Shown in pieces: positions 55,901 through 64,000 of a stretch of 64,000 nucleotides of DNA (the stretch's first letter is position 1; each line of letters begins with the position of its first letter). The notes below the pieces were generated by a model. The model was not told the DNA's origin and did no database searches. It saw nothing but the letters and a program-made list of their open reading frames with translations. The DNA comes from Tubulanus polymorphus (Eukaryota; Animalia; Nemertea). Made by a program: the position numbers and the translations under genes. The stretch lies in contig NC_134029.1 in the NCBI RefSeq assembly GCF_964204645.1, positions 20,144,950-20,208,949 of the forward strand, given 5' to 3'.

Positions 55901-58602
55901 TATCATGTAAAAGACCAAAATATGATGTTTACTCTGGATTTCTCATAAACTGAATGAATTTTTTTCAGTCCCAAATGATCCGAATTAAGTAGGTTCTATC
56001 TACTGTATCAGGTCGTCGTATGAAACCTACTTTTTAATTTTTCGATCTGCATCAGAGCCTTATCGGTGTATTTCTGCGCCTTATCCATATAGCCGGCCTG
56101 CATCGAATGCATTACCGTTACCTAAAATACGAACCGGTAAAGATTCAGGTATCACCAGACACAAAAAATCGCCACACACAGGGTAATTAGCTATGATTCT
56201 TTACTTTACTCACCAGATAGACTAGAACGCACATGTGTTCTTTCGGTAGCCACTGAAACATGTCGCCCGACTGGTTGGGCAGCGGTTCTAGAAATTTCAT
56301 CAGATTTTAAAGAAATTTAGCATCAAGCGTGTTAAATGGTAGTTCATATGACCAGATTAATGTGGAAATCAATAAACGATTCACTCACCATCATCAGTAT
56401 GGGCTGCGGTGATAGTCTGAATACTCTGCTGTAACTGTTTCAATGATGGTTTGACGCTTTTTACCTGAATTTAGAATTTAGCGCGTAGATATTCAAACCG
56501 TAAATTTCACATTTTTTGTAATAAAGGAAGATTACAGATCATGAACGGCTAGCAATGCTTCGAGAACGCACCTGACCAGCCATAAGAAAATGGCAAACTT
56601 GAAGTACGAGGAAATATATTTTCAGCGATTCCTTCCAGCTGGTCTGTCCGGTGAACTGTTCGATTAACTGCGCGGCTAATGATAATACGCTGTGTACTTC
56701 GTTCAACTTCTTTTCAATCAACAAAATCTACATTGAACGAATATAGAAAACGGTTACAGTTTCTTTCGAGATGTTATTTCTTCTTATGTCTACGCATTCT
56801 ATGGCAGGATGATAGGGCGTCAAATACATGACAGTCGACTCCGGTCAAGTTGGATCCATGAAAATTTGTCGAAGTTTGTTGGTAGGCCCTACACATAGCC
56901 ATACAGTACACTCTGTTCAAATCGGATCTGTAAGGACTGTAAAAATGTGTCCGACTTGAGTAATATCCGAGTTGGATGTAATTCATATACAGTGTCCCAA
57001 TAAACATTCCAACTAACATCCGAATCGAACGGTTATCAGAGTTTATCGGATCCAACTCGAGTGTAGTCTACTGTTTATAATCATTGCGTCAGAAAATATT
57101 TCAACTAACATTTATCCGACTTCAGAAGTAGATGAGCCAAGCCTTCTTATAATATAGATGATAGAATAGGCCTATAGCCATTTTTGACTGAAGAGAATTT
57201 GCAGCCACATTTTACTGAGATGAAAATGAATTCAATATTACCATTCCTTTGCTGAGTAAGAACAGAATGCGAGTGTGTTCGGCTCGTTTGACGTGTGAAA
57301 ATTCGGCACCGACTCCTAATAGTTCGCTAGCCGACACGAAATCCTTCTCTAAAGTGTGCAGTTGCTGTAAAATGAAGGCAAGATCTACAGAGATGTATAA
57401 ACACTTGTAAGTCTGAAGTTCCAGGGCCCCTACGGATCAGTCATTCCTGCATATAAGGAGTTTTGTGAGAAAATTTCAAATTTCATGGAAGCGCCTGCAT
57501 CACTTTAAATATCCCAATAAAAGTAGATTCCTCCTGAACCGATACTGTTTATCTTGGTAAAACCATTAATTCTGTGGTTTTGTAAGAAAATTTCTATCCT
57601 TTGCACTACCTAAATTCGGTTCTAATTTGGTAACCACCTAATTGGGTAAAAACAAATTCCAACTGTATCAATTTAGGCAGTTTTCAATTTTAGGTGTTTT
57701 AAATGAGTTTCAGGCATTTTTCTCAAATGAAAGGAGGTTCATGCACCTTCTTAGAAGGAGTTTATAAGGAAGCAAGGTATCATAGGAACCCTGTGGTCTT
57801 TAGGGAGAGATATAAATGACTTACCGCCAATTGAAATAACAAACGACAATGCCAATACGCCGACTGCTGAGATATTTCGATCGCTTTCCTTAATATAGCT
57901 TTCACCGGATGCATCTGGCCCTGAAGAAATTATCAAAAATTGGAATAAGTGGCAAAAGCAAAAATATATTTCATTTATGACGCCCGTTTCTTGCTTTCAG
58001 CCAAAAGTTACCTGCTTCTCATAAATTTGCGCTAAAACGCTGGCGGCTTCGAATTTAACTTCATCTAAAGATACAATCTTCACAAAATAATTAAGGATAT
58101 AATTTGCTGACATATTTGATACTATTATCTTAAAACTAAATGTGATAATCCACTATTCGTATTAGGTACTTATTAATTTTTGCAAGGATACGGTCAAAGA
58201 CAAATTCCACTGGAAAGAAAATGAGAAACATTTTTAAATATATGATAGATCAGTCCGATCGTCAGTTTTAGTCTCACCCAAACGAACGCTACAGCGATCG
58301 ACAAAACTGGGAATACTTACCGCTTTTTCCAGATGAGTCCGAGCCAGATCGATGTTTTTGGTGTGACTGAACAGGATGCTACCGAGTTGCAGATGAGTTC
58401 TGGCTTCGATTCTCGGATTCGGTTTGAAATTGAAGATCGCCTGTAAGCACTGGATGCACAGTCGTATGTTCGGCGGATTCGACGTGCGGAAATTCTCGGC
58501 CAGGCCCAACAACGCCGAATACCAGGGCTCGAATTGCGGAGTTTGAGCCGTCGGGGGAGGGGGAGGCTGAGAAGCTGCAGCGGCTGGATTATTGTTCGCC
58601 AT
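52932..58602 (-). CDS. MAU2: Cohesin loader subunit MAU2/SCC4, ~610 aa
   Basis: 17 frame-consistent exons: 58602-58321, 58209-58192, 58077-58012, 57920-57825, 57364-57242, 56727-56572, 56464-56389, 56287-56214, 56121-56031, 55781-55678, 55309-55232, 55135-55070, 54980-54853, 54375-54298, 54205-54094, 53604-53386, 52997-52932. Motifs [62 protein letters not shown]. Confidence 0.96.
55839..56008. mobile_element. pogo/Tigger-like MITE
   Basis: ACTGTAAAACCTGCTTATTTGGATCA...TGATCCGAATTAAGTAGGTT..ACTGTA; similar element at 36608-36872. Confidence 0.55.
57422..57792. mobile_element. CAGGG(C/T)(C/T)CCTAC-TIR MITE
   Basis: CAGGGCCCCTAC...TAGGAACCCTG; reverse-oriented relative at 62779-63212; fragments at 4479-4620 and 6809-6950. 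Confidence 0.7.
58078..58191 (-). other. U12-type GT-AG intron in MAU2, following an 18-nt microexon
   Basis: Minus-strand 5' splice site GTATCCTTG; branch site TCCTTAAT close to the AG. Confidence 0.88.
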
Positions 58603-58662
58603 CTTGTTTACTACTCACTTGCCACAGATCGATTCGATTCAAGATTGAACCCGGAAGTAAGT
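58600..58662. promoter_or_regulatory. Compact bidirectional promoter (MAU2 / TMEM60-EXOC1) with a + strand non-coding first exon
   Basis: YY1-like CGCCATCTT spanning the MAU2 ATG; ETS-like CCGGAAGT at 58651 overlapping donor GTAAGT at 58657; matching acceptor TTTGTAG at 59409. Confidence 0.6.
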
Positions 58663-59458
58663 TGATTTCTTTTTAAACTTGCCTTTTCTCACTAATAACG
58701 CTCGCTATTCCGATTTAAGGCGACTGGATATAAATCTTTGATATCATATGATTAAGATTAAAGCTGTAGTTAGTATTTTTCGGACCGTCAGGCTTCGTAA
58801 TCTCCTAAAATTAAGCTGCAAATTTATCATCTCAATTAAGTTAAATTCAATTTTACTTTATTTGACATACCCCTAAACAACAAACTTGCCATAACTAAAG
58901 GCATTTTTATTCATGCAACGCATATCGCGGAAAAAATTCATCTTTTTCAGCGAGTGCCTACAACTATTAGTTTACAACGCCCATTTACCAGGCCTAAAAT
59001 TTAGGCCTATTCAACTCAAAATGTGCCAATGCGAGAAGGCCTACTTAACGCAGCTAAATTGCTCTTTGTTCAAGGCAATTTGCAAATTGGCACCTGTGTG
59101 GCAGTTAAGATCGTTAATAGATCAAAAAACAAAATTGCAGCTTTTTTGATCGCAGAAAATTCAGGCTTACGGGTCTAGAGGGTAGAGTCATTTATAAAAG
59201 GCGATTCGATTTGTACCTAAATGATAGCTATCAACAGAGTAAAGCGATCTGATACGAGTCGCTTGAATAAAAATGCTGTAGACCTAAGCTAGATTAGCTT
59301 AGAGTAACCAAGTCATTGAATGGTGTTCAATGATAACCAGCCGCCCTAACAATCCCCAGGCCATAATCATCTATTTGTTTGGCCTCTAATTGATTACTTT
59401 TCTTTGTAGGTCCAGAAAATAGTGTGACTTTCGATGGATATTTGTTATTAGAACTTTG

Positions 59459-59842
59459 ATGGCAGTTCTCCACCGAGCTCTGTTTTCATGGTTCATAGCT
59501 TTGGTGTTCATCATCCTGCTCGCGTTGCGTCTCGACTCGAAAGTTCCGTGGAATTGGTTCATCATTTTCACGCCGCTGTGGATATTCGACGCGATCATCT
59601 CGTTTTACCTGCTCTTCAAACTGATATCGCACTATCGAAACGGCTACGACTCGACCGACCTGTCGATCAAGCGGAAGATCTGGTTTCTGATCGCTCTGTT
59701 CCTGAAACTGACGTTTCAAGTTTTATTGTGCATCAGACAAGAATATTTCCCGGCGAAAATCGAATTGTATTACGTTATGATACCTATTTGGATTTTATTG
59801 ATCGGTTCAATCGGTGACGTATTTACGAGTTTAACGTGGTAA
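59459..59842 (+). CDS. TMEM60: Transmembrane protein 60 (127 aa, 4 TM)
   Basis: Intronless ORF MAVLHRALFSWF...LRLDSKVPWNWFIIFTPLWIFD...LKLTFQVLLC...YYVMIPIWILL, typical of the TMEM60/TMEM185/TMEM203 family. Confidence 0.9.
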   Translation: MAVLHRALFSWFIALVFIILLALRLDSKVPWNWFIIFTPLWIFDAIISFYLLFKLISHYRNGYDSTDLSIKRKIWFLIALFLKLTFQVLLCIRQEYFPAKIELYYVMIPIWILLIGSIGDVFTSLTW

Positions 59843-59865
59843 TCGTCGGTAATCTTCTCTCGAAA

Positions 59866-62800
59866 ATGTCGAGAATTAACGTCGTGTTGCAGAGGGATGT
59901 CTTTCTTCCCGATATGGAACGTTTGATCGCGTTTGTTCACGTATTCAAAGGCGGCAAAAAGAAGAAAACAAGTTTACTATGCCTAGCAGGTAACGATAGC
60001 GACCATTTGAAAATTTTGGAACGTTGACACTGTCGTAGACTGCGCCTAGTTGAAATTAGACCTGTTAAACCTTTCAGTGCAACTACACTGCAGTGCAGTG
60101 TATTAGATCGGCGATGAATTTTGCTAGTACACCGCATCGCGGAGTATTGATGTTGTTAATGATTAGTTTTTATCTCTATTCAAAGATGGCAGCACCAGTC
60201 AAAGCATAATATTAGTAACTAACTATACACCACGCTGCGGTGTAGACGCACTAGCTGTATGCCCATTATTCAATGCATTTTTAGAATTTTCAAATTATCT
60301 CCAGCACTTTTAGATATCAATAAGTCAGCACTAAAAGGGTTTAAGCCACGCCACATCTGTTGAATTCATTGCTTCCGGATTAAAGATAAATAGATTTAGT
60401 AGGCCATTTGGACTGAGTTATCTTTGATGGGGTATCTCTTTATCAATTTCTAAGCATCAAAGATATCATGTAATAGTATTTACATCTTTTTATGATGTTT
60501 GGAAAATTGAATTGTTTTTGTAGTTACTACTGAAAAGCCAGTACAAGCGACTATCTATCAAGTCAAGAAATCGGAAAAAGTGGACAGTTACAAGAAAAAA
60601 TGTCAGTGGCCACTGAGATTGTTAAAACTCGTTGACGGAAAAGATGCAAAACAAGTGAGTCATTTCAGTGGACTATGATTTAGAATCTTGAAACTTTGTA
60701 AATCGATGCGATTGAGACTATCACTTTTTAAAATGATGAAATAACATTGAGCAATTAAACTTAAGAAAATTGCCTATAGGAATCACCTGGAATTCTCGGT
60801 TACCTCTGTGCGCCTTTCTTACTCTGGAAAGGTGCACTGCAAATAGTGAGTAAAATGTTCGAATGTTACAGTAACCAAGAAATGTAGGAGACATAAGAAC
60901 AATTATCGATTGTATACATCTATATAACAACAAGGGTGGCCACTTACCATACCTGCAAATCAGAGAAAGGTCAGGGAATTGATTATCTTTTCTGTTAAAA
61001 AATTCAGGGAATGTGTAAAAAAAAAGCTAAGAGGGAAAAGTCAGGGAAATTTGTTGAGATTGCTATACCGCGTGCAAAACAGTTTCCATCAATGTCTTAC
61101 GTATTTAACTGTGTTAATTAATTGGATTCTTAACAGATCGGGTCAGGGGAAATAACGTGCATGTCAGGGAATAGTCAGGGAAAAAGAAAGTCAAATAAAA
61201 GTGGCCGCCCTTTAATCCAAGAGTGATGACTTTGGTACAAGAGCGTTCATTACGAAATTATATACCGGTAAAAGTAACTTTTAAAAGCATGTTATTGTGT
61301 TGTACAGGAGTCACCAGCATTGCTGGATAATTTGTTTTCACCTTTCGAAGAGGTAGGTTTAAATGGCAAAACCGATATATTTATTGAAGAACTCATATAC
61401 ACTGGTTCTTACCTTGGGACGCGTTAATCAATTTCAACATAGTTCTCATATCCAAGGTGTTTTTCTACATTCATTATTTTGTATCACCCTCACTTATAAT
61501 TTTCATAATTTTTTTTCCGCAAAACATATAGGCCTAACGAATATCTTCATTTTCTTTTTTGTTTGACTACCTTTAATTTTTCGAATTCACTGCCCTCCCC
61601 CTCCCCCTCCTTTGTATTCATGTAGGCCTTGATATGAAAAATATCAAGAAAGCCGTGACTGGTTGAAAAATCATGTTTGCGGTTCACTATTATTTCTCTT
61701 TGTCATTAATAATTTTAATGACATTGAATAACGTTTTCAGGGAAAAAAAGATGGGTGGAAGGATTCCACAGGAAAAAAGAAAAACAGTTGTTTAAAATTG
61801 ATATCGTGGGTTATTCTTAATGATATTCATCAAGACAAGGAATAGTCTTAACTATTAACATTTTTCTCTTTCTTTATTCATTCATTCACCCATGTGGAAT
61901 TTTACAGAAATGCTTCGATATGGACCTTCACATTGACAAGCAAGTTTATAAGTGGGTGTCCGGCAACCGTGCAGAACGAGATTACTTCATCACAAGTTTA
62001 TTCAAGGTATGGCAGATTTACTAATACATATGTAAAAAATCAATTTTTGAAAAAAGCGGATTCGAATTGAATAAGGTTGAAATGATTTGTTGTTCTATTA
62101 TTGCATGTCGAAAGCTGTCGAAGAAACACGTTTCACCCCAACCCGAATTTGTGAATGTGCCATCCCATATATTGGAGGGTATGTTACACGATGATGATCC
62201 TAGCCTTGCCTACATCAACCATTTTTCAACGGATTTCATTTTCAGTTGATCTGTAGGCCTATTACCCTGCAATTGATATACAAAACACTTTGTAATTTTC
62301 ACGTCGAAGTATAATGCATTAAAACCAGTTGATGAAACACTATTCTGTGTTGTAGAGAGAATCCCACAAAAATAACGAAAATGTAACTGAAGCTAATAGT
62401 TTATTCAACGTTTCGACTATATCCTAATAGCAATCTTCAGGAATAATGTATATCCGCTTCAACACCGATATATAAAAGCTCCTGTTCTCGTAAACGTCAT
62501 TCAATCTTGGCCCAAAATCATATCGCTATCTTTCGATAATTTAGAGGTTGCGGTGATCAGTGACACTGTGCGTTTGGCTCCGCAAGGCGATGATATATCT
62601 GTAGCTAGCGATGATTATCAGGCGTTGTCGACGAAAGAAGAAACGGACCTCGAAACGTTGATGTCGCAGTGCGAGTTCTCTATCAGTAACGCAGAGGCAT
62701 TCGCTGAACAACTGTCAAAAGATTTGTCCGTCTTGGATGGGGTACGACATGCGCATTATACGACATTCCACGTATTATAGGGTCCCTACAACTCCTTGAT

Positions 62801-64000
62801 TCCTTAAAATCTCCTTCTAAACTGAAAGTACTTTTAAAGGTGCTTGAAACTCCTTTGATTTGAGCAAAATGCCAGAAACTCCTATAAAACTCCTTCAATT
62901 TTGAAAAATAGGCAGTTCGATACTTTAGAAGTTGTACATTAGACTAAGCCTAAAATCAGTACAGTTCGAATCAGGATCTTTTTGTTACCCTATTAGGTGG
63001 TTACCAAATGGAAAACCAAGTTTAGTAGTATCAAGGATAAAAATTTGCTTATAAAAACACTGTATTAACGTTTTACCGAGATAAACATTACCGATTTAGG
63101 AGGAGTCTACTGTAATTAGAATACAAAAGTGATATAGATGCTTTCTTGAAATATGTAATTTTTCTCCTTAAAACTCCTCATATCCAGGAATGACTGATCT
63201 GTAGGTACCTTGTATAAACAAATCAACATGATAAGCATTGGCAAAAGAATGTGCAATTAATGTTTCTATAGGAAAATATCCATTCAATAATGGGTTCTGA
63301 GGATCAAGTGAACACATTGATGCAGCTTCTGGAAGATGGAATAAACGAAGCGCAAGCAATCGAGGAAAAATTGGACGCTTACGACGAGTTTCTTAAGGTA
63401 AAGGGCTGCTTAAGGTATTTCAAGAACAAGCACAATGATTAATGGATATATTACAACGCCAGATGTTACTTATCAATTGAATATGCTTGACTTAAAATAC
63501 GAGTATCAAAAATATGCATGAAATGTTTGTCTGTGATTTATATAGGGTTTACTCCTACCATATGTCTGATTCTATACATTAGCCTTGCTTAGAAAAAATA
63601 AAGTTAGTTCATCATAGGAATCTGTCAGATTTTATCTCCAAAATAGGTTTTTCCGAAAGATCTTATGCCAGTTGCTCAAAAGTTGGTTACAGTTAACCAG
63701 TGGATAGTTGACATAGCGACAATTAAAGGTTTATTGTTACTGTGGTATTTATCCACCGGCTATCTTCAACCACCCTTTGAGCAACTGACCCCTTGTATTT
63801 TGGTTGGGTTCGTAAAAAGTCATTAATCATTACTAAGCCACATATATTTAAGCCACTCGGAGTTCACTGTAGTTGAAAAGCCCTTCAAGCATTACATATA
63901 TGATATAGAATAAAGAGATGAATCGTTGTAGAATATGAAAGATTTGATGGAAACAATGAAGGAAAAAGATGCATTGATTCACATACAGAACCGGAACCAC
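59866..64000 (+). CDS. EXOC1: Exocyst complex component 1 (Sec3), 5' part; runs off the window
   Basis: Exons 59866-59989, 60524-60654, (optional 61308-61352), 61908-62006, 62115-62178, 62545-62741, 63272-63397, 63932->64000. [63 protein letters not shown]. Confidence 0.95.
60066..60343. mobile_element. piggyBac-like MITE (copy 2)
   Basis: TTAAACCTTTCAGTGC...GCACTAAAAGGGTTTAA; homologous to 3081-3374. Confidence 0.7.
60933..61211. mobile_element. CAGGGTGGCCAC-TIR MITE
   Basis: AGGGTGGCCACT...AGTGGCCGCCCT with the family core sequence. Confidence 0.75.
62395..62445 (-). ncRNA. Minimal type-I hammerhead ribozyme motif (Penelope-associated)
   Basis: Minus strand CCTGAAGA-TTGCTAT..ATAGTC-GAAACGTTG-AATAAA: a CUGANGA / GAAA core with the palindromic ACGU stem III. 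Confidence 0.55.
62779..63212. mobile_element. CAGGG..CCTAC-TIR MITE
   Basis: AGGGTCCCTAC...GTAGGTACCTTG; AACTCCTT internal repeats; homologous to 57422-57792. Confidence 0.7.

What the first reader, a model, noticed from the sequence alone, without database searches (positions are those of the whole stretch)
58620..59989. Candidate bicistronic TMEM60-EXOC1 mRNA with leaky-scanning signature
Seen: the TMEM60 stop (59842) is only 23 nt from the EXOC1 ATG (59866), in a different frame. The gap has no AG acceptor, no AATAAA and no room for a promoter. Both ORFs sit in one apparent exon (59410-59989) fed by a non-coding exon at the MAU2 bidirectional promoter. The TMEM60 ATG has a weak context (ttgATGg, -3 T) and the EXOC1 ATG a strong one (aaaATGt, -3 A). 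Only two ATGs (59488, 59777) occur in the ~405 nt between the starts, where roughly 6 would be expected at random. Known: weak first start, ATG-depleted first ORF and short spacer are the hallmarks of leaky-scanning or re-initiation dicistronic mRNAs in eukaryotes; these two genes are not linked in human. Inference: one mRNA makes both a small membrane protein of poorly known function and Sec3, hinting at co-regulation with exocytosis.
Basis: partly seen in the sequence, partly recalled or inferred. Interest (0 to 1): 0.82.

Follow-up and report, generated by a model that had tools for sequence, protein, structure and literature searches.

The report
Two-protein mRNA in a ribbon worm
In a ribbon worm, the small membrane-protein gene TMEM60 and the start of the vesicle-tethering gene EXOC1 (Sec3) lie 23 bases apart in one spliced exon, so both proteins are likely made from one messenger RNA, a known kind of arrangement that was not seen for this pair in the other genomes sampled.

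Summary
The layout is real. The window is from the nemertean Tubulanus polymorphus. TMEM60 (59459-59842) ends 23 nt before the EXOC1 ATG (59866), with no AG in the gap. One spliced run shows a single path: non-coding exon, GT-AG intron, exon 59410-59989 holding all of TMEM60, then EXOC1 exon 2. These are contigs from one sample with a one-base hole at a variable site, not single molecules.

ATG depletion is only suggestive within the window (P 0.06-0.33). Against orthologues it is clearer: second-lowest ATG density of 31, and a -3 T start where 28 of 30 have a purine.

Best reading: bicistronic mRNA, EXOC1 likely reached by leaky scanning, helped by re-initiation after the uORF. Translation is untested. 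The pair was absent from 60 informative TMEM60 loci (25 groups; none known to be nemertean), so co-regulation with exocytosis has no support. The scan noted this kind of unit on other DNA, not this pair. Verdict: new member of a known kind.

The parts
58321..58602 (-). MAU2 first coding exon, head-to-head with the unit
   Evidence: PF10345 Cohesin_load E 3.5e-21; X4 contig of 1980 nt starts at 58601
58630..58656 (+). non-coding first exon (part seen in contigs; true 5' end not mapped), donor GTAAGT
   Evidence: X4 joint 58656^59410, GT..AG, 27 nt on this side
58657..59409 (+). 753-nt leader intron
   Evidence: table 5
59410..59989 (+). shared exon: uORF, whole TMEM60 ORF, spacer and first 41 codons of EXOC1
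   Evidence: X4 contigs 59410-59575 and 59577-59989, with GT-AG joints at both ends
59434..59451 (+).
59412..59491 (+). predicted stem-loop covering the three 5' AUGs (lead only; pairing changes with the window folded)
   Evidence: z -3.29, 1 of 200 shuffles; 0 of 76 control windows reach -3
59459..59842 (+). TMEM60 ORF, 127 aa, intronless, weak start (-3 T)
   Evidence: PF10269; 48-53% identity to proteins named transmembrane protein 60; 3 of 3 listed variants synonymous
59488..59817 (+). overlapping 109-codon ORF in the EXOC1 frame; 15 codons on the other allele; unlikely to be a protein gene
   Evidence: variant at 59533 gives a stop at codon 16
59777..59842 (+). in-frame Met107 of TMEM60 (-3 G); initiation here would give 21 codons ending at the TMEM60 stop
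59843..59865 (+). 23-nt spacer, no AG, no ATG
59866..59989 (+). EXOC1/Sec3 start (-3 A) and first coding segment
   Evidence: 100% identical to residues 1-41 of XP_074649870.1, 894 aa, with PF15277, PF09763, PF20654
60524..60654 (+). next EXOC1 exon, joined to the shared exon in the contig that also holds the last 266 nt of TMEM60
   Evidence: X4 record 27
61908..64000 (+). further EXOC1 exons (61908-62006, 62115-62178, 62545-62741, 63272-63397, 63932 onward)
   Evidence: joints (the joint from 60654 to 61908 is inferred from GT/AG); 270 codons without a stop

Best explanation
The whole TMEM60 reading frame and the start of EXOC1 sit in one exon that assembled contigs show spliced at both ends, so one mRNA likely encodes both proteins, and EXOC1 is likely made by ribosomes that scan past TMEM60 instead of translating it. 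Shown: the sequence layout, the two splice joints, both proteins as separate database entries, and the weak, AUG-poor TMEM60 frame. Inferred: one promoter shared head-to-head with MAU2 gives a capped RNA with about 76 nt before the TMEM60 AUG. Some 43S complexes start at TMEM60. Others leak past the three -3 T AUGs (59434, 59459, 59488). Others again translate the 5-codon uORF and resume scanning too close (7 nt) to use the TMEM60 AUG. Both of the last groups must also pass Met107 (59777) to start at the -3 A EXOC1 AUG. The link likely arose in this lineage by joining a compact TMEM60 coding exon to the first coding exon of EXOC1, not because the proteins work together.
For: Run X4 carries 7 canonical intron joints that X1-X3 lack, so it is read here as RNA. 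On 58540-60075 it lays only 4 contigs. One joins 58656^59410 and runs to 59575. One starts at 59577, in TMEM60 codon 40, and runs through the stop, spacer and EXOC1 ATG into EXOC1 exon 2. There is no other joint, and the loose ends listed are only the exon-2 continuation and a 49-nt repeat-like match in the leader intron. The one-base hole falls on a variable site seen in X1, with no AG before it. No AG in the spacer; first AATAAA at 61194. TMEM60 looks maintained: 3 of 3 listed variants are synonymous and the conserved columns are intact. Its start has -3 T while 28 of 30 non-redundant orthologous loci have A or G. Its internal ATG density (0.52 per 100 nt) is the second lowest of 31, and 9 of 89 orthologous proteins have as few internal Met (median 4). 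Precedents: weak first start and AUG depletion tested in algae (PMC11892635, abstract and two result sections); a uORF carrying ribosomes past a first gene to a start 332 nt on in KSHV ORF35-36 (PMC3561293, abstract and Discussion).
Against: Contigs are not molecules: overlapping separate RNAs can be stitched together, rare forms are dropped, the run is one sample of one study, its library type is not on record, and the path has a one-base hole. The X4 contig over later EXOC1 exons has about twice the depth (142 against 72-75) and an intron-2 contig exists; the tool says depth cannot rank parts of a gene, but a second, internal start for a shorter EXOC1 is not excluded, and 32 joints were not shown. 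AUG depletion is not significant against within-window nulls (P 0.06-0.33), and L020 is lower still. Four upstream AUGs, one with -3 G, should cost much EXOC1 output. The uORF start is itself weak. No translation data exist for either frame.
Confidence: 0.68

Rival explanations
1. Overlapping monocistronic RNAs: EXOC1 has its own start inside the TMEM60 ORF (or is trans-spliced there), TMEM60 has its own 3' end, and the assembly stitches the two together.
For: A contig across two genes does not show one transcript (tool caveat). The exon is CpG-rich (o/e 1.69), though other coding exons are too (1.39-2.02). AG dinucleotides exist inside the ORF (e.g. 59735, 59828). In loci L001/L002 a tight TMEM60 cluster has AGs in its spacer. 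In Drosophila only 45 of 159 dicistronic loci are exclusively dicistronic (PMC4528330 passages).
Against: No second joint or leader-like loose end in X4. No AATAAA or ATTAAA before 60379, and the X4 contig is spliced across EXOC1 intron 1, where a TMEM60 3' end would be expected. One search found no paper on spliced leaders in nemerteans (1 listing, on chaetognaths). The weak, AUG-poor TMEM60 start would be unexplained.
Confidence: 0.15
2. Same mRNA, but EXOC1 is made by ribosomes that finish TMEM60 (or its last 21 codons from Met107) and re-initiate across the 23-nt spacer, or by internal entry.
For: Very short spacer; Met107 has -3 G and opens a short frame ending at the same stop. FlyBase curators note that most fly dicistronic pairs do not fit scanning.
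Against: Re-initiation after a long ORF is inefficient (established knowledge, recalled) and improves with spacing up to 79 nt (as cited in PMC3561293 Discussion). No TGGGA motif in the last 150 nt (its role in calicivirus re-initiation is recalled). No unusual structure before the EXOC1 AUG (z +0.58 and +0.83).
Confidence: 0.12
3. The RNA is in effect an EXOC1 mRNA; the TMEM60 frame is a barely translated relic in its leader and the working TMEM60 gene lies elsewhere.
For: Weak start shielded by a uORF. The genome could not be searched for a second copy. One X3 contig joins foreign letters at 59577.
Against: The frame is intact, full length, about 53% identical to orthologues, and 3 of 3 listed variants are silent, while the overlapping frame tolerates a stop.
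Confidence: 0.05

Closest known systems
Human bicistronic transcripts PYURF-PIGY, ASDURF-ASNSD1, MIURF-MIEF1, STREMI-SLC35A4 (14 listed in PMC13303939; passages read)
   Same: A small conserved protein upstream of a larger conserved gene on one spliced mRNA.
   Different: Those have ribosome-footprint and 100-vertebrate conservation support. Here translation is untested and the pairing was not found in other loci. TMEM60 is not mentioned in that paper's main text (0 hits; its dataset was not opened).
Green-algal bicistronic loci translated by leaky scanning (PMC11892635; abstract and sections 6 and 8 read)
   Same: Short ORF1 (384 nt against medians of 291-357), short spacer (23 nt against 40-183), short leader (about 76 nt against 54-83), weak ORF1 start, fewer AUGs than expected before ORF2.
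   Different: An animal gene; an extra uORF before ORF1; an in-frame internal AUG with -3 G; no mutational test.
KSHV ORF35-ORF36 mRNA (PMC3561293; abstract and Discussion read)
   Same: A short uORF next to the first gene's start, then a few hundred nt (414 here, 332 there) to the second gene's start.
   Different: There the key uORF overlaps a strong ORF35 start and has the stronger context. Here it is weak, ends 7 nt before a weak start, and two more AUGs lie in the way. Cellular, not viral.
Drosophila dicistronic genes (159 pairs, 2.5% of genes; PMC4528330, passages and supplement search)
   Same: An invertebrate gene pair without a known functional link sharing a processed mRNA.
   Different: Sec3, exocyst and TMEM60 do not occur in the 11 supplementary files that could be searched, the polycistronic list among them; a TMEM60 orthologue listed only under a CG number would be missed.

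Membership tests
Eukaryotic bicistronic mRNA | Two non-overlapping, conserved protein-coding ORFs on one strand in one transcription unit | tested here: met
   PF10269 ORF and EXOC1 (XP_074649870.1) 23 nt apart
Eukaryotic bicistronic mRNA | Both complete ORFs on the same mature, spliced molecule | tested here: inconclusive
   Spliced contigs give one path and bridge TMEM60 codon 40 to EXOC1 exon 2, but they are assemblies from one sample with a one-base hole
Eukaryotic bicistronic mRNA | No separate promoter, splice or poly(A) site that resolves the two ORFs | tested here: inconclusive
   No AG in the spacer, no AATAAA before 61194, no second joint among 4 contigs; transcript ends cannot be read from contigs
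Eukaryotic bicistronic mRNA | Both ORFs translated from that mRNA | not testable with these tools
   No Ribo-seq or proteomics
Leaky-scanning bicistron (green-algal type) | Weak ORF1 start, stronger ORF2 start | tested here: met
   -3 T against -3 A; 28 of 30 orthologous starts have a purine; no species-wide start consensus could be built
Leaky-scanning bicistron (green-algal type) | AUG depletion before ORF2 | tested here: inconclusive
   P 0.06-0.33 within the window; second lowest of 31 against orthologues
Leaky-scanning bicistron (green-algal type) | ORF2 output falls when the ORF1 start is strengthened | not testable with these tools
   Needs a reporter
uORF-driven re-initiation bicistron (KSHV ORF35-36 type) | Short uORF placed so that its ribosomes miss the ORF1 start | tested here: met
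   5 codons, stop 7 nt before the TMEM60 ATG
uORF-driven re-initiation bicistron (KSHV ORF35-36 type) | uORF efficiently used, and ORF2 output dependent on it | not testable with these tools
   Its context is weak (-3 T, +4 G); needs mutation
Operon resolved by spliced-leader trans-splicing | Acceptor AG between the ORFs and leader sequence on the downstream mRNA | tested here: not met
   No AG in the spacer; no leader-like loose end in X4, though contigs can drop short tips
Conserved functional gene pair (MOCS2- or PYURF-like) | Linkage kept across distant lineages | tested here: not met
   0 of 70 loci match EXOC1 (best E 0.86); 60 have 200 nt or more behind the stop (25 groups); simulated 50%-identity exon found 27 of 30 times; close relatives not sampled

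The most novel reading that the evidence does not exclude
A cellular version of the KSHV ORF35-36 switch: a short uORF of the TMEM60 leader (human TMEM60 also has a short uORF and responds to DENR/MCTS1 loss in reporters, PMC5473865) has been turned into a ferry that carries ribosomes past TMEM60 to an essential exocyst subunit. The TMEM60:Sec3 ratio would then be set by ternary-complex supply and shift towards Sec3 under eIF2-alpha phosphorylation, as for ATF4. It would be a recent, lineage-limited bicistron, useful for watching how one is born and tuned.
Probability: 0.22. Interest if true: 0.72.

Novelty: new member of a known kind. Interest (0 to 1): 0.47.

Why it matters
Bicistronic mRNAs are known in flies, humans and algae, so the kind is not new. 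I found no report of this pair or of a nuclear polycistronic mRNA in a nemertean (listings). If true, full-length Sec3, a core secretion protein, is made only as the second cistron behind four AUGs. Because TMEM60 orthologues elsewhere have strong starts and many AUGs, the locus offers a before-and-after comparison of how a first ORF is retuned once a gene is captured behind it. It does not, on present evidence, say anything about TMEM60 function.

Tried and rejected
Own genome: none held, so no second TMEM60 copy and no species-wide start consensus could be sought. Sequencing runs: no holder is on record as RNA; X4 was judged RNA from its intron joints, X1-X3 show no such joints. X4 has no cover in 59996-60075; taken alone this is no evidence. 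Contig depths (72, 75, 142) were not used to rank parts. Fusion proteins: a search for longer TMEM60 relatives gave 1 hit among 331 candidates, a 394-aa PF10269 protein, and EXOC1 residues 1-270 matched none of 189 fetched proteins; weak evidence only. Genome contigs and viral contigs held no TMEM60. MAU2 exon 1 matched none of 70 loci (best E 1.5). Read-through of the TMEM60 stop is rejected as a route to EXOC1 because the frames differ. The 109-codon overlapping ORF is rejected as a third protein: no Pfam match at cut-off, and a stop on one allele. uORF conservation: several orthologous loci have upstream ATGs within 60 nt, but many loci are genomic and the ATGs may lie in introns, so this was not counted as a test. 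EXOC1 exon 1 alone gives no Pfam hit, so Pfam was not relied on for the linkage test. No complex prediction was run, since no binding is claimed. Paper searches for TMEM60 + bicistronic, TMEM60 + EXOC1, dicistronic + Sec3 + exocyst, spliced leader + Nemertea and nemertea + polycistronic gave nothing on this locus; one search was too loose to count (5,693 papers, none of the 10 listed names Tubulanus). Most subscription papers are outside the library.
Full report
What is there. The sequence shows a 127-codon ORF at 59459-59842 and an ATG at 59866 in another frame, 23 nt apart, with no AG or ATG in the gap. The first ORF belongs to PF10269 and is 48-53% identical to proteins named transmembrane protein 60 in Lepeophtheirus and Lytechinus. 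The second start is residue 1 of an 894-aa exocyst complex component 1-like protein of Tubulanus polymorphus, XP_074649870.1, whose first 41 residues match the window at 100%; the species is a nemertean. The TMEM60 protein is also held by NCBI and UniRef as its own entry. Seven EXOC1 segments join to 270 codons without a stop. MAU2 starts at 58602 on the other strand.

RNA evidence. Four runs of one study hold the stretch, none labelled RNA. X4 alone shows canonical intron joints, 7 of them, in MAU2, the leader and EXOC1, so I treat it as RNA. On 58540-60075 X4 lays 4 contigs: MAU2; a 193-nt contig joining 58630-58656 to 59410-59575; a 49-nt repeat-like match in the leader intron; and a 544-nt contig from 59577 through the TMEM60 stop, spacer and EXOC1 ATG, spliced to the next EXOC1 exon. 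The break at 59576 coincides with a C/T variant in X1 and has no AG before it, so it is not an acceptor. No other joint and no leader-like loose end was listed. Limits: one sample, contigs not molecules, rare forms and short tips dropped, ends not mappable. Later EXOC1 exons lie on a contig of about double depth and an intron-2 contig is present; I cannot interpret this, and an extra internal start is not excluded.

Start codons. The first three have -3 T and +4 G, Met107 has -3 G, EXOC1 has -3 A. The three variants listed inside TMEM60 are all silent there, and one of them, present in X1 and X4, stops the 59488 frame at codon 16. That frame is therefore not a maintained gene.

Is the AUG shortage real? 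Against base composition, 2 seen versus 6.3 (Poisson P 0.062 at a mean of 6); against codon shuffles, 1 out-of-frame versus 2.1-2.4 (P 0.33, 0.21); against 7,943 nt of other coding sequence in the window, P 0.095, with 21% of 259 overlapping windows as low. Against orthologues the signal is clearer. Of 70 loci, 62 had a usable Met start and collapsed to 30 groups (21 full-length, 9 partial). Of these 28 have a purine at -3, and only L020 (GC3 0.89) has a lower internal ATG density than the window. Of 89 non-redundant proteins (from 107 passing the coverage filter, of 189 held), 9 have at most one internal Met. I read this as modest support for retuning, not proof. The region 59412-59491 folds better than shuffles (z -3.29; 0 of 76 control windows reach -3), but the window was chosen after looking and the pairing changes with the window.

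Conservation. The full EXOC1 protein matches none of the 70 TMEM60 loci from metagenome contigs (best E 0.86); 60 have 200 nt or more behind the stop, 25 after collapsing, and a simulated exon at 50% identity was found 27 of 30 times, at 40% 23 of 30. MAU2 exon 1 matches none. The loci are unnamed, and I have no sign that any is a nemertean, so conservation in close relatives is untested. Two loci, L001 and L002, have TMEM60 followed after 25-26 nt by other genes (an HMG-box-like ORF, then an ATG10-like ORF), with AGs in the spacer and many internal AUGs. TMEM60 can thus be packed in front of unrelated genes, which argues against a functional TMEM60-exocyst link.

Mechanism. Most likely one capped mRNA serves both frames. 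TMEM60 is made by ribosomes that skip the weak uORF and accept its weak start. EXOC1 is made by those that leak past all upstream AUGs or that re-initiate after the uORF, too late for the AUG 7 nt on. Met107 is a sink under either route. Re-initiation after the whole TMEM60 ORF is less likely: the ORF is long, the spacer short, there is no TGGGA motif and no special structure. All translation steps are inferred.

Known cases. Human bicistronic transcripts (PMC13303939, passages), algal leaky-scanning loci (PMC11892635, abstract and sections 6 and 8), KSHV ORF35-36 (PMC3561293, abstract and Discussion) and 159 fly dicistronic pairs (PMC4528330, passages; supplement search without Sec3, exocyst or TMEM60) cover the kind. 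Human TMEM60 was tested as a short-uORF, DENR/MCTS1-dependent 5' UTR (PMC5473865, passages); the effect on mouse Tmem60 was only about 8% (PMC6547434, passage). Searches for the pair and for nemertean polycistronic or trans-spliced mRNAs found nothing relevant in the listings. Earlier scan notes hold no TMEM60 finding but several bicistronic units in fungi, a probable diatom and abalone.

Verdict. A real and probably bicistronic locus (both ORFs on one mature RNA about 0.85; both translated from it by scanning about 0.68). It is a new member of a known kind, apparently not widely conserved, with one added feature worth testing, the uORF. Interest 0.47.

Noticed in passing
window 60780-60845 and 61308-61352 (+): EXOC1 intron 2 holds two in-frame cassette-like exons (22 and 15 codons) that both begin with Glu-Ser-Pro and look duplicated. 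The first is in the RefSeq protein P0190. X4 has an unspliced contig over this intron (60625-61937). Possibly regulated inserts in the N-terminal lipid-binding domain of Sec3.
   Followed up: partly
L001 68-1507, L002 1-1184: Intronless contigs with TMEM60, a 25-26 nt gap containing an acceptor-like AG, a 136-138 aa HMG-box-like ORF (Atlas scores 0.87-0.88, lead only) and an overlapping ATG10-like ORF (PF03987, E 3.8e-33 in L001): a separate candidate three-gene unit.
   Followed up: partly
window 58601-58630: The X4 contigs of MAU2 (-) and of the TMEM60-EXOC1 unit (+) begin only 28 nt apart, each 1-2 nt behind an AG, with no foreign letters: a very compact or overlapping bidirectional start. 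A CCGGAAGT (ETS-like; label recalled) motif overlaps the first donor at 58651-58658.
   Followed up: no
L029-L062 (26 of 70 loci match my pattern): One group of related TMEM60 loci shares a two-part conserved motif within about 90 nt behind the stop, ending in CTGCAG: a 3' UTR element or a conserved acceptor.
   Followed up: no
window 59577: A 56-nt X3 contig joins 26 foreign letters, absent from the window, to the TMEM60 ORF at this place: library chimera, second copy or structural variant.
   Followed up: partly
window 59815-59865: On the window's allele only one stop (TGA followed by C) separates the 59488 ORF from the EXOC1 start in the same frame; read-through would add 126 residues to EXOC1. 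The other allele closes this frame early.
   Followed up: partly
window 60007: 12-nt insertion in EXOC1 intron 1 in runs X1-X3 relative to the window.
   Followed up: no
L006, L008, L023, L025, L026, L047, L048, L051, L054, L058, L063, L064, L065, L067: In these loci the TMEM60 frame breaks off part-way (mostly near codon 70-75, apparently at an intron), whereas the window and most other loci have it in one piece.
   Followed up: no
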